NCBI GenBank assembly: GCA_965216325.1
Contig: OZ244160.1
Span: 2,848,001 to 2,912,000, forward strand
DNA length: 64,000 bases
Origin: Coraliomargarita sp.
GTDB taxonomy: Bacteria > Verrucomicrobiota > Verrucomicrobiia > Opitutales > Coraliomargaritaceae
Reading direction: 5' to 3'
The notes under the pieces were generated by a model. The model ran no database searches. It saw nothing but the letters and a program-made list of their open reading frames with translations, and had not been told where the DNA came from. The position numbers and the translations under genes were made by a program. This document shows, piece by piece, positions 1-7,016 of the stretch (positions are counted from its first letter, which is position 1; every line of letters starts with the position of its first letter).

Positions 1-230
1 CTCAAAGGGCTACTGGCGTCTGGCTCAAGCGCTGGGCACACAAACGGCAATGAGCAATCAATGGCTAGAGGAACAAGGCCTGATCAACATCAGGCAACAA
101 TGGTGGAGTTTAAAGCTCCTGCGTATAACCGCCTTAAAACAGACTGCGTAACACTGTGATCAGTCTGGCTGCGGACCCGCACGGCAGGTGGTGTGAGAGC
201 CGGGGGACTTAGGGCCCTCGGCTACTCGAT
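1..230 (+). mobile_element. Group IIC-attC intron B, copy 1, 3' part (RT C-terminus, DV, DVI); continues beyond the left window edge
   Basis: Encodes maturase-X tail SKGYWRLAQALGTQTAMSNQWLEEQGL. DV ACCGCCT...AGGTGGT (128-192); DVI with bulged A ending CTACTCGAT. Identical to 4696-4925 except position 213. Abuts R'' GTCGAA of cassette 4. Confidence 0.9.
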
Positions 231-236
231 TTCGAC

Positions 237-914
237 CTATTTTAGTTTTATCGTCGGGGTGCCCTCTAGGTCGAAAATGACTAGATAAATTTCTTTTCGA
301 TGGTCTCCTTCTACTATCTCAAGCTTTTCAAGTAGAGCTTCATCGGAAAATGTTAATCTGAAAGCGTGGCTGCTTGGCATTGTGACTATGACAACATTCT
401 CATTTTCATTTTCTATGTCTCCGCCTAAGGAGGTAAGTTTCTCAGTGAGGTATTCTCTTTTTCTTCCCAACTGAATGTAGTCATTGCCGATGGGTGACCT
501 ATTCGCTTGGACTGCTAGTTTAAAGCCATCCTGCTTCATCAGAAGAAGTTCAGCCCCACTTCTTCTACCGTTTTCTTTTATTACATAGTATCGAACGTAG
601 TAGACATCTTTGTGAGCAAGAGATTTTTCAGATGGCAGTATGTGAATCTCTGACAGATCAGATGCTTTCAAAACGGTTCTCCACGCTGACTCAGGTTTCT
701 TATTCGATGGCCATTCAATCCAAGTTCTACTGAAGTATGGTTCTAGCTTTTCATACTCTTTATTGTAAGCGGCAGTCAGAATTTTTATCGCGACATGATC
801 GGGTGATCCTGGCTCAACATCATATTCTGTAATGCTCACTGGTGTCGGGCGAGCGGATACGCTGTTTATGCATGCTAAGAGAATGCTGAATGATACAATG
901 ATTTTCTTTTTCAT
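237..914 (-). CDS. Integron cassette 4 gene, hypothetical exported protein (225 aa)
   Basis: ATG follows R' GTTCGAC after a 6-nt leader. N-terminal signal peptide MKKKIIVSFSILLACINSVSA. AT-rich. Stop lies immediately before R''. Confidence 0.8.
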   Translation of the reverse strand: MKKKIIVSFSILLACINSVSARPTPVSITEYDVEPGSPDHVAIKILTAAYNKEYEKLEPYFSRTWIEWPSNKKPESAWRTVLKASDLSEIHILPSEKSLAHKDVYYVRYYVIKENGRRSGAELLLMKQDGFKLAVQANRSPIGNDYIQLGRKREYLTEKLTSLGGDIENENENVVIVTMPSSHAFRLTFSDEALLEKLEIVEGDHRKEIYLVIFDLEGTPTIKLK

Positions 915-920
915 TTTTTC

Positions 921-977
921 GTCGAACGTGGAGGACGGGCGCGGCTTCAGCCGTTGTCCCGCTCCGACTTGATCTGC
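921..977 (-). other. attC: attC site (57 bp, intact) of cassette 3
   Basis: Top strand reads GCAGATC-aagtc-GGA(G)CGGG...CCCGTCC-tccac-GTTCGAC. This is R''/5-nt spacer/L'' with an extra base at position 4, then L'/5-nt spacer/R'. Confidence 0.85.
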
Positions 978-1549
978 TTTGTTTTTTCTATGGATTCGTG
1001 AATATATGCAGGCGCACTGTCTGGCACATCTGAAGCACGAACAAGACGATACCGAATCCAATTTGAACTCTCTGCTTCTCGTTGGGCCTCCTCGTCCACA
1101 AAGGACTGAAAATGAATTCCGGAAGCAGTTAATCCGATAGTGGTTTCGGCGAAACGTAGGATGTAATCTTTAGGGCTAACCTTCCCTGTCGGCCAACCAC
1201 TGCTTTTACTATATAGTTCACTTTGAAGTGGTATTGTTATCGTCGATTTATGGTCTACATCATCAACGAGAATCTTTATTTCATTTGCATCACTGTTTGC
1301 TAAAAATTTGACGCTGCCGCTAGGGGCGGGTGCTTGGAAAGCACTGAACCAATCGCTTCGCCCATCGGACTTCTCTTTCACGAAAAAGTAAAGCTCTTGG
1401 GTCTGGTATGATTCAATCGGCAAATCCATCTCGGCGGGAACGAAGTGAAGTGCACGTGCAAGATCAGATGCCGAAACGATTTCTTTTTCTTTGTTACAGC
1501 CGATTGATAGCAAAACGGCCAAGCCTAATATCACGTTGGTTACTTTCAT
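947..1549 (-). CDS. Integron cassette 3 gene, putative lipoprotein (200 aa)
   Basis: Lipobox LSIGC after a hydrophobic stretch. Starts 7 nt after R' GATCTGC. ORF runs into its attC and stops in the attC loop. Confidence 0.8.
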   Translation of the reverse strand: MKVTNVILGLAVLLSIGCNKEKEIVSASDLARALHFVPAEMDLPIESYQTQELYFFVKEKSDGRSDWFSAFQAPAPSGSVKFLANSDANEIKILVDDVDHKSTITIPLQSELYSKSSGWPTGKVSPKDYILRFAETTIGLTASGIHFQSFVDEEAQREAESSNWIRYRLVRASDVPDSAPAYIHESIEKTKQIKSERDNG

Positions 1550-1556
1550 TTTATTC

Positions 1557-1616
1557 GCAGATCGTAAAGAGGGGTAACTAGTGGGCGCAGCACACTAGTT
1601 GACCCTCTCGCCTGGT
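1557..1616 (-). other. attC: attC of cassette 2, split by intron A (remaining 5 nt of R'' at 3523-3527)
   Basis: Removing the intron gives TGCGAAC-caggc-GAG(A)GGGT(C)AACTAGTG...CACTAGTTACCCCTC-tttac-GATCTGC (65 bp) with two extrahelical bases. Confidence 0.85.
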
Positions 1617-3522
1617 GTGTGCCGAGCATGCGCTCGATGTAAAAGTGGTTAAAGTCCGCTATAGTAAGAACCTAATCATAAAATGAAAGAACTATTACCA
1701 GATGCCAAGGGCGTTGTCGTGAGGCAGGGTCTGAAGGAAGGCTATGGGAAAGCTGCGAGCTGATGAACAAAAACTGCATAGAAGGCCGACGTGGTCTGGT
1801 GAGCTGGCACCACACAGCGAAACCGCTAGGTTCAGCCACGCAGGTAAATGCAGCAGTTGTGCAGCGGAGCATCGAGTGCTTACCTCGGGAGGCCTCAGCG
1901 AGTGGCATGGGTTGGCTTAAAGGTGTCAATCAAGCCCATGCACCTGAGTCAGTAATGACACAGGCGGCACTGGTTGAGGATTCAGCAGCGAGCATAGTAG
2001 TCATGGAACCGCGAGCCATGAGTAGGTCGATAGGCCGAAGAGCATGGAGGTCTCGAACGTGATGAAGGCTCAAACCGTATATGGGCAGTCCGACCCGCAG
2101 GCAGGTTCACCTCTCACTGGCACAGACCCGTGTCGAGAGCTGGGCGATGTTTGTGCAGGGAAGCATGGGGCTGCCGAGCAAGAACTACTGGAGTTGATGC
2201 TGGACCGCGCTAATCTGAACGCAGCTTGGCGGCGTGTGCGCAGCAACGGTGGAGCTTCTGGCATCGACGGTATGTCGATCGAGGACTTTCTGCCGTTTGC
2301 GCGCGAGCACTGGTCACGGATCGAGACTCAACTGAAAGAGGGAACCTACCAGCCAGCCGCGGTGCGCCGCGTCTGGATACCGAAGGACAATGGGGAGAAG
2401 CGCCCACTGGGCATCCCCACGGTGTTGGATCGTGTGATCCAGCAAGCCATCGCTCAGGTAATTGCGCCGATCTTTGAGGCACAGTTCAGTGAGCACAGCT
2501 TCGGCTTTCGTCCAGAACGCCGAGCCCATGACGCAGTCAAGTCGATCCAAAGCGCAGCCACTGAAGGTCACGTGTACGCGGTCGATTGTGACCTGAAGTC
2601 ATTCTTCGACACGGTCGATCATCGTGAATTGATGCAGCGTCTAGCGCGCCGGATCAAAGACGGGCGCGTGCTGCGCCTGATCTACCGCTACCTGAAAGCA
2701 GGCATCCGCTTGCCCGATGGCAACACCGAGGCAACCGCCGAGGGGGTGCCACAGGGGGGACCGCTCAGTCCGCTACTGGCCAATATCATGCTCGATGACC
2801 TCGACCATGAACTCGAACAACGCGGGCACCGTTTCGCACGCTACGCCGACGATTTTGTTATCGTCGTCCAAAGCAAGCGAGCGGCTGAGCGCGTGATGCA
2901 CAGCATCAGTGGCTTCATCGAAGCGAAGCTCAAACTGATCGTGAATCGCGAGAAAACGAAGGCGGGTCGGCTGACACAGTGCAGCTTCCTCGGATTCGTG
3001 ATCTCGCCCAAGCGTATCCGCTGCTTGGATACCAAACTGCACACGTTCAAGAAGACCATCCGTCAAATCACCTGTCGCAGTTGGGGCATCTCCATGGAGG
3101 AACGCCTCGAACGTCTACGACTGTATGTGAATGGCTGGCTGGGTTACTTCGCTATCGGTGTGCCGTTCAAGGATATCCGCAGCATGGATCAATGGCTACG
3201 AAGGCGTGTGCGCTTGTGCTACTGGAAACAGTGGCGTTTACCGCGCACGCGCTACCGCAAGCTACGCGCGCTTGGGATCAACCCGAAGACGATTAAGCAG
3301 GCTAGTCGTTGTCGAAAAGGCTACTGGCGCTGCAGCAAACTGCGAGTGGTCAGTATCGCGATGAACAACCAATGGCTCGCCGAACAAGGCTGCCCCTCAA
3401 TCAAAGAACAGTGGCTCAAACTCTGCTATCCAAACGGATAGCTCTAACGGAACCGCCGTGCTACGGAGCCGTATGGCCGGTGGTGTGGGGGCGGGAGTCA
3501 GTGATGGCTCCCGCTACCCGAT
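1617..3522 (+). mobile_element. Complete group IIC-attC intron A
   Basis: 5' end GTGTGCCGAGCATG and 3' end CTACCCGAT. IIC-type DV at 3452-3484 with CGC triad. Candidate EBS1 ACCA (1809-1812, in a GCTG/CAGC stem loop) is complementary to 5' exon TGGT. Inserted at GT|T of the attC bottom strand, just after the hairpin. Confidence 0.93.
2044..3441 (+). CDS. ltrA: Group II intron reverse transcriptase/maturase, no endonuclease domain (start uncertain)
   Basis: Motifs RPLGIPTVLDRVIQQA, DCDLKSFFD, GVPQGGPLSPLLANI, RYADDF and X-domain GWLGYF. Confidence 0.95.
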   Translation: MEVSNVMKAQTVYGQSDPQAGSPLTGTDPCRELGDVCAGKHGAAEQELLELMLDRANLNAAWRRVRSNGGASGIDGMSIEDFLPFAREHWSRIETQLKEGTYQPAAVRRVWIPKDNGEKRPLGIPTVLDRVIQQAIAQVIAPIFEAQFSEHSFGFRPERRAHDAVKSIQSAATEGHVYAVDCDLKSFFDTVDHRELMQRLARRIKDGRVLRLIYRYLKAGIRLPDGNTEATAEGVPQGGPLSPLLANIMLDDLDHELEQRGHRFARYADDFVIVVQSKRAAERVMHSISGFIEAKLKLIVNREKTKAGRLTQCSFLGFVISPKRIRCLDTKLHTFKKTIRQITCRSWGISMEERLERLRLYVNGWLGYFAIGVPFKDIRSMDQWLRRRVRLCYWKQWRLPRTRYRKLRALGINPKTIKQASRCRKGYWRCSKLRVVSIAMNNQWLAEQGCPSIKEQWLKLCYPNG

Positions 3523-3592
3523 TCGCATTTTGGGCTCCGCCAACAGATCAACTTCAGACTACTACAATTTGATTCAATTTAGCGTGTGAAAA

Positions 3593-4454
3593 TTAGAAGA
3601 AATCATCGACGGCCTGGTCTTCTTTAGCCTCTTCCTGAGCTTTTCTCTGTTCCATTTTATTAATTAAGTCTTCCTCGGCTCCTTTAAAGAGTGGGGTCGA
3701 ATGAGTCAGCAGGTATATTTCCTCGATGTTACGGGAATTCACTTTTTCCCATAGGGCATCGATCATAGCTCGGACTTCGGGCATAGTGTTGTAAGCTGAT
3801 CTGTCTACATTCATATTTCGCATCATCTTATCTTTGGTGAGGCCCTCTTTTGCACTCTCTGATAAATTACCGTAAATTTTAGAATAGATAACTCGACCGT
3901 AATTGGTGCTATTCGAATGTGTTACACGAGTTTGAAAACCATCTATTCTTTCCTCCTTGCTCTCATCGAGCTTACCAAACCTCTTGCGAATCGCTGCGTC
4001 CATTTTAGGTTCAAGATCGATATCAACTTTTTTAATTACCCCGAAAAACCGATTATTTATGGATAGAACTGTTGAACCGTCATGTTGGATCGCAGTGATA
4101 TAATTTCTGATCTCACTTAATTGAGGAAATGCTTTCAAGATGTCTGCGTCTAATTTATTGAGTGATACGTTAGGCAACTGATAGGAATCTAGCTGGGTTT
4201 TCTGATATATCTTGAGGAAATCTTCGATCGGAATTCCCCAGGGAATATCTTTATACCCTTTGTAAACGGACGAATCTGCAGTGACATGATTTTTGACTAG
4301 TTCATCAATTGCGGCTTTGGACTTTTGCTCTTGTCGCTCAATCTCAGCCTTACGCTCCTCTTCGGCAATGCGTCGCTCTTCCGCTTTGCGGGCTTCCTCA
4401 GCCTTACGCTCCTCTTCGGCAATGCGTCGCTCTTCCGCTTTGCGGGCTTCCTCA
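3593..4454 (-). pseudogene. Integron cassette 2 gene, 5'-truncated (charged coiled-coil repeat plus unknown domain)
   Basis: AT-rich ORF. Its apparent N-terminus (4455-4507) is antisense intron-B sequence. Native start and R' (expected GTTCGCA) are missing. Confidence 0.7.
4347..4454. repeat. Two perfect 54-bp tandem units encoding EEARKAEERRIAEEERKA
   Basis: 4347-4400 is identical to 4401-4454. Confidence 0.95.
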
Positions 4455-4925
4455 CCCGTCGCAACTGGAGTGTGAGTATGGAGTATCGTCTGTATCAGAT
4501 CCGCCAATACGTGCGGGGCTGGATGGGCTACTTCGGACTCAGTGAAAACTCCAGTTTATGGATCTGGATTGACCGCTGGCTTCGCAGGCGAGTTCGCATG
4601 TGCTACTGGCGCATGTGGAAACGCCCGCGACGTCGCTATCTCAATCTGGTGAAAATTGGCTCCAATAGTAAGTTTGCTGGTGGCTTTGCTAAAAGCTCAA
4701 AGGGCTACTGGCGTCTGGCTCAAGCGCTGGGCACACAAACGGCAATGAGCAATCAATGGCTAGAGGAACAAGGCCTGATCAACATCAGGCAACAATGGTG
4801 GAGTTTAAAGCTCCTGCGTATAACCGCCTTAAAACAGACTGCGTAACACTGTGATCAGTCTGGCTGCGGACCCGCACGGCAGGTGGTGTGAGAGCCGGGG
4901 GACTTAGTGCCCTCGGCTACTCGAT
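4455..4925 (+). mobile_element. Group IIC-attC intron B, copy 2, 5'-deleted
   Basis: Translates TRRNWSVSMEYRLYQIRQYVRGWMGYF...WLRRRVRMCYWRMWK, homologous to the intron A X domain. DV/DVI as in copy 1. Abuts R'' GCAGAA of cassette 1. Confidence 0.9.
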
Positions 4926-5293
4926 TTCTGCCTCCAGGCGGTTAGTGTGTCGATTTGCTCTAACGTGTGTTTGTTGGTATCCCAAACTGGAGTGAAAAGT
5001 GAGATTCTATTTGGAATAAGTGGCACGACATAAATATGGATAGATGAATTCTCATCTTCTTTATATCTAATGTCGATATAGTTGAAAGTCTTTGGCTTCG
5101 CCGTCCTAGGAAAGGTTCCGAGTTCGATAGATTCTATTTTTTCTTTTTCTATCCTAAGGTTTAGCCTTCCTGATGTGCATTCGATCGAATCTGGGTTGAT
5201 TCTGAACTTTCCTTTACTTTCATAAACCCAGAACCATCTGCCAACGAAAGATGCGTTATGTTCAGGTGTGGAGAAGAATGCTTTAAATTCCAT
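4904..5293 (-). CDS. Integron cassette 1 gene, hypothetical (possibly PH-like fold); C-terminus reads into the intron
   Basis: ATG 7 nt after attI core GTTCTGC. No stop before R''; terminates at TAA inside intron DVI. Confidence 0.7.
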   Translation of the reverse strand: MEFKAFFSTPEHNASFVGRWFWVYESKGKFRINPDSIECTSGRLNLRIEKEKIESIELGTFPRTAKPKTFNYIDIRYKEDENSSIHIYVVPLIPNRISLFTPVWDTNKHTLEQIDTLTAWRQKSSSRGH

Positions 5294-5300
5294 TTCTTTC

Positions 5301-5340
5301 GCAGAACAGTGTTATGTAACGGACTCAGTCCGTGATTAGC
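5301..5340 (-). other. attI: attI recombination site (core G|TTCTGC at 5307-5301)
   Basis: GTTCTGC precedes the first cassette and is complementary to that cassette's R'' GCAGAA(C). No attC-type hairpin upstream. Lies 5' of the divergent intI. Confidence 0.75.
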
Positions 5341-5702
5341 TGGTTTAGGGATTTGTAAAAAACTTACGTTTTTTGATTTAAGTGATCTTGTTAGGGGGCT
5401 TTACACCAGTAGTAGAGGTGGATTGGAATCGAGTGATGGTTTTGAGGTAAGTCAAAATGTGAAATGGCGGCAAGGTTTGTTTCCTCAAAATCATGCATTC
5501 GTGGGCTTTTTTTGGGCAAATGTATGATTTGCTTGTTTTGTGATGTGGTGGTTTGTGTGGTCGGCCTGTTGTAGGGTGTTGATTGCTAGATGTTTGTGTG
5601 TGTTGCGGGGCGGTTTTGAGTGGTTTGGGTCTCCTCAAAAACATGCATTCAAATGTGAGTCTGCGAGTTGAATAATGAACTGATGTTTACATGTTGGGGT
5701 GT

Positions 5703-7016
5703 ATGAAAACAGTTCATTTTCCACGTTGGGCGGAGGTCTTGCGCGAATCCTCTTTAGGGGAGGAGTTGCGTTCGAGTTATAAGGTCACGATTCGCTGGTA
5801 TTTGAGTTGGTGTGCCAAGCAGCATATCGGCTGTTCGGTTGAGTCGGCGCGTGCCTTTGTTGATTGGGCAATCAATGAGAAGCAACCTAAAGATTGGGTC
5901 ATTAGCCGTTGGCAGGCTGCGATTCGCTGGTTCTTCGTGACAGCAAAGGAGCAGGCGGCACCAGGGGGCGGAGTGAGTCAGGAGCAGAGTGGGGACGCTC
6001 CTGCGCTAACTGCACTGGAGCGGCGAGATTTGGAGGCGGAAGAGCGGGTTGAGGCGGCGAACGACGATGAAGGGCGGATTTTAGCGGTGATGCGACGACG
6101 CGGGATGGCTCTGCGAACTGAGCGGGCCTATTTGGGGCACTATCGTAGTTTTGTGCGCCAGTCGGGTTTGGTGGATGGCTGTTTGATGTCGGCTTCGATG
6201 GTTAAGCGCTACTTGGATTATTTGGCGATGGAGCGTGCAGTGGCGTCCTCGACGCAGAAGGGGGCGCTCAATGCCTTGGTGTTCATCGCACAGGCTGTTT
6301 TCGGCATTGAACTGGGGGATATTGGTGACTTTGTGCGCGCGAAGAATCGGAGGCGTATTCCGGTGGTGATGACTAAGGAGGAGTTGCGTTTGTTCTTTCA
6401 GCAATTGAGCGGTGAGAAGCTATTGATGGCCCGGGTGCAATATGCGGCCGGCTTGCGTGTCTCCGATCTATGCCGTTTGCGTGTGCAGGATTTGGATCTG
6501 CAGCGTAATCAGTTGGTTGTGCGCTGTGGTAAGGGGCACAAGGATCGAGTGGCACCCTTACCTGAGTTGTTGAAGTCCGAATTGGAGGCGCAGTTGTCTG
6601 TTGTGCGGAGCCTATTCGATGAAGATTTACAGCGTAGTGATCTTGCGGGGGTTTATCTGCCTGAGGCCTTGGCGCGGCGACACAAGAATGCGGGGCGAGA
6701 TTGGCGTTGGCAATGGGTGTGGCCGAGTCGTAAGATCTCCACGGATCCACGCGGTGGGAAACGTCGTCGGCATCACGTGTTGCCGAATACTTATCAGCGC
6801 ATTGTTCAAGATGCAGGAAAGGACGCTGGGCTGACCAAGCGAATTACGAGTCACACCTTACGGCACAGTTTTGCCACGCACTTACTGGAGGATGGCGTGG
6901 ACATCCGGACGGTGCAGGACTTGCTCGGACACAAGCATATCGAGACGACCCAGATTTACCTGCACGTCATGCAGAAGCCGGGGGCGGGGGTGCGCAGCCC
7001 GCTGGAAACGCTTTGA
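5703..7016 (+). CDS. intI: Integron integrase with N-terminal extension (alternative start 5691)
   Basis: Tyrosine recombinase motifs [17 protein letters not shown] and LLGH...TQIY. IntI-specific insert [11 protein letters not shown]...WQWVWPS...DPR...RRHH. Confidence 0.95.

What the first reader, a model, noticed from the sequence alone, without database searches (positions are those of the whole stretch)
128..192. Group II intron with a 33-nt hairpin inserted inside catalytic domain V, with the RT ORF ending in that hairpin
Seen: intron B DV folds as ACCGCCT-[TAAAA CAGACTG cgtaacactgtgat CAGTCTG]-GCT GCG GACC CGC AC GGC AGGTGGT. Without the bracket (135-167; 4830-4862 in copy 2) this is a regular IIC DV: 10-bp lower stem, CGC triad, AC bulge, 3 bp and a tetraloop. 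The insert has its own perfect 7-bp stem. It sits exactly where intron A has a single bulged T (3459). The RT frame runs through the triad and stops at TAA 149-151 in the insert loop. Known: DV is the most conserved, least insertion-tolerant domain of group II introns. Inference: the same insert is present in two copies at two different attC sites, so the intron was mobile with it. This suggests a functional DV variant and possibly an undescribed IIC-attC subgroup.
Basis: partly seen in the sequence, partly recalled or inferred. Interest (0 to 1): 0.85.

Follow-up and report, generated by a model that had tools for sequence, protein, structure and literature searches.

The report
Group IIC intron with branched domain V
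A family of mobile self-splicing introns carries an extra hairpin inside its small catalytic domain, which is normally treated as unchangeable, and these introns still appear to jump, with a similar variant common in gut bacteria.

Summary
At window 128-192 and 4823-4887, domain V (DV) of a class C group II intron is 65 nt, not 31-34. A 33-nt UAAAA-plus-hairpin sits between base pairs 7 and 8 of the lower helix, where intron A has a bulged U. The reverse-transcriptase frame stops at TAA 149-151 in the hairpin loop.

It is a lineage feature, not an artefact. The genome holds five such elements at five different attC sites, two of them ORF-less. They differ by 9-23% in domains I-III and by 3 nt in DV. 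A genome of another genus in the same family has three full-length copies, two 100% identical at different attC sites, which implies recent retrohoming with the insert.

Terminator-targeting IIC introns from gut metagenomes carry UAAAA plus a 5-6 bp stem, usually GNRA-capped, at the same place. Four of the six stem pairs show compensatory changes. The RT tree puts the two groups in separate IIC clades beside normal-DV relatives.

No RNA or splicing data were available. Six literature searches found no description.

The scan had earlier noted a different DV oddity in Bacteroidota, a hairpin at the bulge, but not this insert.

Verdict: a new structural variant of a known kind, very probably functional.

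The parts
1..230 (+). Last 230 nt of full-length intron B1. The whole element is genome C1:2846339-2848230, 1892 nt, and starts 1662 nt left of the window.
   Evidence: The 5' end reads GTATGCCCGGCATG after an attC-like hairpin ending gactgg. The 3' end reads CTACTCGAT at window 230 and is followed by ttc.
2..151 (+). C-terminal coding part of the B1 RT/maturase. The first in-frame stop is TAA 149-151, inside the inserted hairpin's loop.
   Evidence: stop-to-stop frame of 622 aa ending ...RITALKQTA. RVT_1 + GIIM, and TIGR04416 at 358 bits.
128..192 (+). Domain V, 65 nt. Base pairs 1-7 are 128-134 with 186-192 (CGC triad 130-132). Base pairs 8-10 are 168-170 with 183-185. The AC bulge is 181-182, the upper helix is 171-173 with 178-180, and the loop is 174-177.
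   Evidence: and alignment A2.
135..167 (+). The 33-nt insert: linker UAAAA 135-139, 7-bp stem 140-146/161-167, and loop 147-160. Probable inner pairs are G148.U160, U149-A159 and A151-U157.
   Evidence: the stem is invariant in 12 of 12 distinct sequences, and pair 151/157 is G-C in 10 and A-U in 2.
193..230 (+). J5/6, domain VI with a candidate bulged branch-point A at 224, and the 3' splice site after 230.
   Evidence: fold. The 3' end fits the class C consensus CCUACYCGAU quoted in PMC4028801 (passage). The branch point is inferred.
4449..4925 (+). 5'-truncated B2-like copy (99.4% identical to B2 over 473 nt), fused at 4449 to an unrelated minus-strand frame. DV is 4823-4887 and the insert is 4830-4862.
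1617..3522 (+). Complete intron A, a IIC-attC type. Its DV is 3452-3484 (33 nt) with a bulged U at 3459. The RT stop is TAG 3439-3441, before DV.
5691..7016 (+). Integron integrase, divergent from the cassette array that holds the introns.
   Evidence: TIGR02249 integron integrase, 356.5 bits against a cut-off of 265. Phage_int_SAM_4 + Phage_integrase.

Best explanation
This is a sublineage of class C (attC-targeting) group II introns whose catalytic domain V is a three-way junction and not a simple hairpin. The extra arm is a 5-nt UAAAA linker plus a stem-loop. It leaves the 5' strand between base pairs 7 and 8 of the 10-bp lower helix, two pairs above the CGC triad and three below the A-Y bulge. 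Both catalytic elements and the continuous 3' strand are left intact.

The arm is compatible with splicing and retrohoming, because the introns that carry it have spread recently. It is probably a peripheral element that projects out of the core at a point where sister introns already flip out one U. It most likely helps DV fold or dock. In the gut lineage its GNRA cap suggests a tetraloop-receptor contact.

In the marine lineage the RT gene has come to end inside the arm. A ribosome finishing the RT therefore has to unwind the DV 5' strand, so translation and ribozyme folding exclude each other on one RNA.

What is shown: the anatomy, the copy distribution, the conservation, the covariation and the phylogenetic placement. 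What is inferred: catalytic competence, from identical copies at different sites. What is speculative: the docking role and the translational coupling.
For: Anatomy.

In this genome, 5 of 5 B-type elements carry the 65-nt DV, at five sites with different attC-like 5' flanks ending gactgg and 3' exons starting ttc. These are two full-length elements with intact RVT_1+GIIM frames, two ORF-less minis of 652 and 659 nt, and one truncated copy. All four complete elements hit Rfam group-II-D1D4-3 and D1D4-1 above gathering. They are only 77-91% identical in domains I-III, yet DV differs by 3 nt: two loop positions that change together, A-U to G-C, and one bulge base.

Genome G291, from another genus of the same family, has three full-length copies with the same DV. 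Two are 100% identical over 1892 nt at different attC sites, and the third is 98.2% identical.

Metagenomes add 15 group-2 hits with 13 distinct 3' flanks. The stem is invariant in 12 of 12 distinct sequences while the apical loop and domain VI vary.

The second lineage, group 1, has 93 hits with 67 distinct 3' flanks. Its anatomy is UAAAA plus a 5-6 bp stem, GNRA-capped in most sequences, at the same position. In the 24-sequence alignment, 4 of 6 stem pairs have changes on both sides and 96.2% of cells are paired. The covariation score is 0.251 against 0.068 in shuffles (0 of 500 reach it) and at most 0.082 when the partners are slid.

Sister introns (A type, L249, L250) have a single extra U at the same place.
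Against: There is no splicing, RNA or structural evidence. No RNA run holds the element and the reads laid were DNA contigs only.

The near-identity of DV among the genome's own copies may partly reflect gene conversion. The last ~340 nt of B1, B2 and the truncated copy are identical, and the two minis share their 3' halves.

In the marine group the main stem never varies, so it gives no covariation. The single compensatory pair, seen in 2 of 12 sequences, could be one event.

The fold energy of DV alone is not unusual (z -1.26).

The metagenome pattern required TAAAA, so the universality of that linker is partly an artefact of how the hits were collected.

No 3D model was available to test whether the arm clears domain I, J2/3 and domain III.
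Confidence: 0.75

Rival explanations
1. Dead-intron reading. The hairpin is a parasitic or slippage insertion that inactivated DV, and the copies were spread by cassette shuffling, DNA duplication or homologous recombination, not by retrohoming.
For: Copy 2 in the window is a truncated relic fused to an unrelated frame. The copies are mosaics with identical 3' segments, so DNA recombination does act on them. The homologue in L057 is a decayed fragment. An unrelated 20-nt palindrome turns up in the DVs of other IIC introns, in L036 and L056 with a similar one in L117, so small palindromes do land in DV.
Against: Every copy ends exactly at intron boundaries, and the flanking attC hairpins and cassettes differ. 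The RT frames are intact. G291 has 100% identical 1892-nt copies with different flanks. The insert is kept across genera and in at least 13 distinct metagenomic sites. The equivalent stem in group 1 covaries.
Confidence: 0.08
2. Trans-complementation reading. The B-type DV is crippled, and these introns splice only with help from co-resident normal introns (A or C type) or their proteins, DV being able to act in trans.
For: The genome also holds 5 A-type and 10 C-type copies with normal DVs. ORF-less minis must in any case borrow a protein. That DV can work in trans is recalled biochemistry, not a result of any call.
Against: All pairs of the B-type DV core, the triad and the bulge are kept in 12 of 12 distinct sequences, apart from two single mismatches. 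That would not be expected if the cis DV were unused. Group 1 shows the same architecture in many unrelated hosts.
Confidence: 0.05
3. Coding or DNA-level reading. The insert is kept because it encodes the RT's C-terminal tail and stop codon, or because it works as a DNA or transcription signal, and the RNA hairpin is incidental.
For: In the marine group the stop codon UAA/UAG is always at loop positions 3-5, and the RT has about 7 extra residues encoded by the DV 5' strand plus insert.
Against: The ORF-less minis keep the whole insert. In group 1 the RT stops about 14-16 nt before DV, yet the hairpin is present and covaries as RNA, mostly with a GNRA cap. No T-run follows the hairpin, so it is not a terminator.
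Confidence: 0.07

Closest known systems
Group IIC-attC introns (S.ma.I2 type; Leon and Roy, PMC3001079, passages seen)
   Same: They insert antisense into attC hairpins of an integron array beside an integron integrase. The RT/maturase lacks an endonuclease domain. They have a IIC ribozyme with a CGC triad and class C end sequences.
   Different: DV is 65 nt with a third helix, against 32-33 nt in the nearest sampled relatives. The RT frame ends inside DV. Phylogenetic placement relative to S.ma.I2 itself was not tested.
Canonical terminator-targeting IIC introns (O.i.I1, B.h.I1, GsI-IIC, the E. rectale intron)
   Same: The group-1 relatives with the insert, such as L028, sit after a terminator-like hairpin. 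Their RT is related to GsI-IIC RT (364 bits) and the 7uim RT (306 bits).
   Different: A UAAAA-plus-hairpin arm, mostly GNRA-capped, lies between DV base pairs 7 and 8. Whether any solved IIC structure has such an arm could not be checked. No nucleic-acid structure search was available.
HYER / ORF-less group IIC introns (Liu et al. 2024, seen only as cited in passages of PMC12990946 and PMC11754743)
   Same: The two 652- and 659-nt ORF-less minis have the size and organisation of ORF-less IIC ribozymes.
   Different: They sit in attC sites next to ORF-bearing relatives that could mobilise them, and they carry the branched DV. No endonuclease activity was tested.
Lineage-specific ribozyme additions already described: class B 3' extension ('domain VII') and CL1 5' insertions (PMC4424553 and PMC4028801, passages)
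   Same: A conserved extra RNA element confined to one intron sublineage and compatible with activity.
   Different: Those additions lie at the intron's ends. This one lies inside the catalytic domain itself.
Degenerate organellar introns with insertions or mispairs in DV (PMC4424553 passage)
   Same: Extra nucleotides in DV.
   Different: Those introns are regarded as unable to self-splice and are immobile. These are bacterial retroelements with intact RTs and identical copies at different sites.

Membership tests
Group II intron, class C (IIC) | Class C boundary sequences: 5' GUNYGCCNRGCAUGG and 3' CCUACYCGAU (PMC4028801 passage) | tested here: met
   B1 starts GUAUGCCCGGCAUGU, matching 14 of 15 positions, and ends GCUACUCGAU, matching 9 of 10. 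The mini in L005 ends CCUACUCGAU, matching 10 of 10.
Group II intron, class C (IIC) | Domains I-III of the IIC ribozyme | tested here: met
   Full-length Rfam hits to RF02001 (100-116 bits) and RF01998 (41-53 bits) for B1, B2, both minis and the G291 copy.
Group II intron, class C (IIC) | DV hairpin of about 32-34 nt with a CGC triad and a 2-nt bulge | tested here: not met
   The triad, the G.U wobble and the A-Y bulge are present, but DV is 65 nt with a third helix. The length and single-hairpin criterion fails. This failure is the finding itself.
Group II intron, class C (IIC) | Match to the Rfam DV/DVI model RF00029 | tested here: inconclusive
   There is no hit at E up to 10 in window 1-5000 or at gathering in six loci. 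The normal-DV intron A is missed as well, so the model is uninformative for these IIC introns.
Group II intron, class C (IIC) | RT/maturase without an endonuclease domain that clusters with class C | tested here: met
   RVT_1 + GIIM only. TIGR04416 at 358 bits. The tree places the RT with other IIC RTs.
Group IIC-attC lineage | Insertion into attC sites, antisense to the cassettes, in an integron or CALIN array | tested here: met
   Five sites follow imperfect hairpins ending gactgg, the cassette frames lie on the opposite strand, and an integron integrase is at 5691-7016.
Group IIC-attC lineage | RT falls inside the IIC-attC clade defined with S.ma.I2 | not tested
   No reference IIC-attC RT was in the tree. 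The clade holds only verrucomicrobial introns with attC-like 3' ends.
Active mobile intron | Splicing and retrohoming demonstrated | not testable with these tools
   Only indirect evidence: 100% identical 1892-nt copies at different sites in G291. No RNA holder was listed.

The most novel reading that the evidence does not exclude
The lower helix of DV, between the catalytic triad and the bulge, is a natural attachment point for an additional ribozyme domain. A UAAAA-linked hairpin there makes a previously unknown tertiary contact, a tetraloop-receptor contact in the gut lineage. It has either passed between distant IIC lineages by recombination or arisen twice at the same base-pair step. The first 14 nt of the insert are 13 of 14 identical between the gut type in L028 and the marine type, although their RTs are only about 40% identical and sit in different clades.

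Together with the many other DV expansions seen in IIC introns (apical-loop, bulge-side and 5'-strand hairpins), this would overturn the view of DV as an invariant 34-nt hairpin. It would also give a natural example of a multi-helix catalytic junction in a group II intron.
Probability: 0.35. Interest if true: 0.8.

Novelty: new variant of a known kind. Interest (0 to 1): 0.66.

Why it matters
DV is the catalytic heart of group II introns and the counterpart of the U6 stem-loop of the spliceosome. It is the one domain that search pipelines rely on because it is thought not to vary (PMC4028801 and PMC4424553 passages).

A naturally mobile intron with a branched DV shows where the active-site helix tolerates an added domain. 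It offers a natural site for engineering tags or scaffolds into IIC ribozymes and ORF-less IIC (HYER-type) tools. It also suggests that DV-based surveys may under-count IIC introns. RF00029 finds neither these introns nor their normal-DV neighbour here.

Material for experiments is therefore easy to find.

Tried and rejected
- **Rfam DV/DVI model, with and without the insert.** RF00029 gave no hit even to intron A's normal DV at E up to 10 or at gathering in six loci. I did not build a deletion construct.
- **RNA evidence.** No RNA holder was listed. The four runs laid were DNA contigs. They showed a related B-type intron covering the DV region in metagenome contigs, and attC-like sites that continue ...gactgg|TTC without an intron, but no expression or splicing data.
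- **Kissing-loop idea.** I looked for a domain I sequence complementary to the variable apical loop (CACUG here, CACGU in G291). Domain I has GCAGUG here and GGAGUG in G291, so there is no matching covariation. Dropped.
- **Automatic sorting of the other long DVs by insert position.** The rules were too rigid: 47 of 64 fell in 'other', and duplicated ACCGCC motifs were miscalled. One search gives only a rough split, 28 apical against 36 not.
- **Assembly artefact or simple DNA duplication.** Rejected, because the flanks differ and the element appears in independent assemblies.
- **Solved structures.** The protein search shows only that the L028 RT is related to GsI-IIC and E. rectale RTs. It says nothing about their DVs.
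- **Literature.** Six searches and passages of nine papers found no bacterial DV insertion. Simon et al. 2008 (PMC2525955) is not held, and Liu et al. 2024 was not seen. The bacterial group II intron database could not be consulted, so prior description there cannot be excluded.
- **Failed calls that were corrected.** (term too short; script error; structure string one character too long; wrong frame coordinates).

Full report
**1. What is in the window**

The window is G000:C1:2848001-2912000 of a complete 3.06-Mb genome.

Window positions 1-230 are the 3' end of a group II intron that I call B1.
- Seven pairs, 128-134 with 186-192, hold the CGC triad (130-132) with its G.U wobble.
- Thirty-three extra nucleotides follow at 135-167: UAAAA, a perfect 7-bp stem at 140-146/161-167, and a 14-nt loop.
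- Then come three more pairs, the AC bulge, a 3-bp upper helix and the loop GACC.

The ViennaRNA centroid of DV alone and of 100-232 is this three-way fold, followed by a domain VI with a bulged A. The energy of DV alone is unremarkable (z -1.26), so the case rests on comparison with other sequences.

I use the register with an A-Y bulge because the review PMC4424553 describes the active site as the triad plus the 'AY bulge' (passage).

Intron A (window 1617-3522) has a 33-nt DV whose only irregularity is one extra U (3459) after the same seventh pair. The RT frame of B1 passes through the triad and stops at TAA 149-151.

**2. Copies in the genome**

A search of the genome with window 4449-4925 found five places. 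A scan for the DV strands sorted the genome's IIC introns into three families:
- A: 33-nt DV, 5 copies.
- B: 65-nt DV, 5 copies.
- C: 34-nt DV, 10 copies.

The B elements are:
- B1: 1892 nt, ending at window 230.
- B2: near 552-554 kb, with an A-type intron nested after its first base.
- Two ORF-less minis of 652 and 659 nt.
- The window's second copy (4449-4925), which is 5'-truncated and fused to an unrelated minus-strand frame.

All five follow different imperfect hairpins ending gactgg and are followed by ttc. The array lies next to an integron integrase at 5691-7016 (TIGR02249, 356.5 bits).

B1 and B2 have open RT/maturase frames with RVT_1 and GIIM. B1, B2 and both minis give full-length Rfam hits for domains I-III.

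The elements are not recent duplicates of one another. B1 against B2 is 79.8% identical. The minis are 84% identical to each other and 77-91% identical to B1 and B2 in domains I-III. DV differs by only three bases: two loop positions that change together (A..U to G..C) and the second bulge base.

There is a caveat. The last ~340 nt of B1, B2 and the truncated copy are identical, and the minis share their 3' halves. Recombination therefore homogenises this end and weakens the conservation argument within this one genome.

**3. Relatives with the same insert**

I searched 401 genomes of the phylum with the B1 RT, and 77 had a match at E <= 1e-30. Of the 28 best loci from other genomes, my pattern found a DV in 16 and none in 12. 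One of the 16 (G291, same family, another genus, 71% RT identity) has the 65-nt DV. The other 15 have 31-34 nt.

G291 holds three full-length copies. Two are 100% identical over 1892 nt at different attC-like sites, and the third is 98.2% identical at a distant site. Identical copies with different flanks are the usual signature of recent retrohoming. This is the strongest, though indirect, evidence that the branched DV works.

A Puniceicoccaceae MAG has a decayed fragment with the same insert (L057).

It gave 118 matches, of which 108 were followed by a class C 3' end. Fifteen of these are the 65-nt type, with 13 distinct 3' flanks, and 12 of the 15 are preceded by an open frame.

I aligned 12 distinct sequences: the window, one mini and ten others. 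The 7-bp stem never varies, while the three apical loop bases and domain VI do vary. One inner pair is G-C in 10 sequences and A-U in 2. The purine of that pair is the third base of the stop codon (UAA or UAG), which is kept in every sequence. This is weak covariation and possibly a single event.

**4. A second lineage with the same architecture**

It returned 125 matches, of which 66 were followed by the strict 3' motif (60 distinct DVs); a relaxed 3' motif gave 64 distinct DVs.

Two of them, a Bacteroidales MAG (L028) and a Sutterella MAG (L071), have UAAAA plus a 6-bp stem with a GNRA loop directly after the seventh pair. L028 is a complete intron sitting after a terminator-like hairpin with a T-run. 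It has a 437-aa RT that stops 14 nt before DV and is related to GsI-IIC RT.

The metagenome scan found 93 such DVs with 67 distinct 3' flanks, largely in gut assemblies. Of 26 distinct sequences I aligned 24. I dropped L145, a 46-nt deletion form, and L048, in which a normal DV follows a second ACCGCC.

On that alignment the inserted helix is paired in 96.2% of cells, and 4 of its 6 pairs change on both sides. The covariation score of the whole structure is 0.251, against 0.068 in shuffles (0 of 500 reach it) and at most 0.082 with slid partners. The core DV pairs are almost invariant, so the signal comes from the insert. This is good evidence for a selected RNA helix.

Because the pattern demanded TAAAA, the constancy of that linker is partly built in.

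**5. Phylogeny**

In an RT tree of 22 rows, B1, B2 and the G291 intron form a 100/100 clade. That clade is nested within a 100/99 clade of 11 rows whose other members have 32-33-nt DVs. L028 lies in a different starred clade, beside rows with 32-nt DVs. B RTs are 48-49% identical to A and about 40% identical to L028.

The two insert-bearing groups are therefore separate IIC sublineages with normal-DV neighbours. Yet the first 14 nt of the insert are 13 of 14 identical between the L028 type and the B type (by eye). The three possible histories are transfer of the DV module by recombination, old ancestry with many losses, or convergence. I cannot decide among them.

The single bulged U of the A type, which is among B's closer relatives, suggests a simple route by expansion of a flipped-out nucleotide.

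**6. How it probably works**

The 3' strand of DV is continuous, and the insert joins the upper part of the lower helix without spare nucleotides. The lower and upper DV helices can therefore stay stacked while the arm is tethered by the A-rich linker. This is inference.

The triad, its wobble and the bulge are untouched. I therefore read the arm as a peripheral domain, tolerated at a backbone position that already extrudes a base in sister introns. The GNRA cap in the gut lineage points to a docking contact. The invariant stem sequence in the marine lineage points to sequence-specific recognition, by RNA or by the intron protein. None of this could be tested here.

The overlap of the RT frame with DV is not special to the insert. 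The C-type intron's RT also reads through the DV 5' strand and stops in the DV loop, and group 1 stops before DV. The overlap implies only that translation and DV folding are mutually exclusive on one molecule.

**7. Rivals**

- A dead intron spread by DNA events is contradicted by exact intron boundaries with different flanks, intact RTs, identical copies in G291 and covariation in group 1.
- Dependence on a DV supplied in trans is unlikely, given the strict conservation of the cis DV core.
- A purely coding or DNA-level role is contradicted by the ORF-less minis and by group 1.
- Assembly artefact is excluded by independent assemblies.

**8. Comparison with what is known, and novelty**

Everything except DV fits class C group II introns of the attC-targeting kind. 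The minis resemble ORF-less IIC ribozymes (HYER, known to me only from passages citing it).

The reviews I could read describe DV as small, highly conserved and the one reliably identifiable domain (PMC4424553 and PMC4028801, passages). They list as special variants only a 5' insertion, a 3' extension and degenerate organellar DVs.

Six full-text searches found no bacterial DV insertion. Subscription papers, Simon et al. 2008 (not held) and the intron database were out of reach.

The scan's own notes hold a different DV oddity: a hairpin at the bulge in ORF-less Bacteroidota introns (e1-4184712). I also saw that type among the long DVs (for example L053). No look-alike of this stretch was on record.

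I rate the finding a new variant of a known kind.

**9. Broader point**

The scan for long DVs suggests that DV expansion is not rare in IIC introns. By a rough rule, 28 of 64 distinct long DVs have the extra bases at the apex and 36 do not. Some entries on both sides of that split are miscalls caused by a second copy of the DV 5' strand (ACCGCC) inside the match, for example L027, L048 and L118 among the non-apical and L107 and L126 among the apical. The non-apical 36 also include the bulge-side hairpins of Flavobacteriia and other 5'-strand hairpins (L024, L037, L056, L069, L079). These were not analysed further.

Noticed in passing
window 5691-7016 (+): Integron integrase (TIGR02249, 356.5 bits against a cut-off of 265), divergent from the minus-strand cassettes at window 1-5400. 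The intron-laden array is therefore a complete integron, not an integrase-less cluster like the array reported near 554 kb.
   Followed up: partly
window 4300-4449 (-), junction at 4449: The truncated B2-like intron copy is fused to a minus-strand frame (3596-4447, no Pfam hit) that contains a direct repeat of about 60 nt (about 4337-4396 and 4397-4447). A deletion has probably removed the intron's 5' part together with the start of that cassette.
   Followed up: no
genome C1: 10 copies, e.g. 1098010, 348923 (outside the window): A third IIC family (C type, 34-nt DV, 10 copies) lies outside integron arrays. Its RT frame also runs through the DV 5' strand and stops at a TGA in the DV loop. Several copies have broken frames.
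   Followed up: partly
L053, L076, L085, L090, L113 and similar (Flavobacteriia genomes): IIC introns in which a hairpin of about 28 nt replaces or adjoins the 2-nt catalytic bulge on the DV 3' strand. This matches the earlier scan note e1-4184712.
   Followed up: no
L036 (Nitrospira MAG), L056 (Subsaximicrobium), L117: The same 20-nt palindrome (CCTGCCTGCCGGCAGGCAGG, or a close variant) sits at different positions of DV in IIC introns of different phyla: the apical loop, the 5' strand opposite the bulge, and the 3' side. It could be a small mobile palindrome or a recurrent structural module.
   Followed up: no
L049, L059, L075, L077, L083, L084, L094, L098, L101 (Pseudoalteromonas): A IIC family with an A/U-rich, apparently unstructured loop of about 20 nt in place of the DV tetraloop. 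It is present in many Pseudoalteromonas species, sometimes as two copies about 2.2 kb apart.
   Followed up: no
L048 (Proteobacteria MAG): A normal DV is preceded, 23 nt upstream, by a second copy of the DV 5' strand with the same AACCGCCTTAAAA start as the B-type insert region, here serving as the RT's last codons. It is possibly a relic of how ORF ends and DV strands get duplicated.
   Followed up: no
L002 1-80 and genome C1:550373-554175: Twintron: an A-type intron is inserted after the first base of B2. The two families cut the same attC motif one base apart (gactgg|ttc for B, gactggN| for A).
   Followed up: partly
L002 ~566 versus L003 567; L246: The ATG that could start the B1 RT is CCG in B2 and is also not an ATG (GAT CGG) at that place in the G291 copy. 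The real start is therefore probably an upstream TTG or another non-ATG codon in the conserved segment GGACTTGCCTCTGGA.
   Followed up: no
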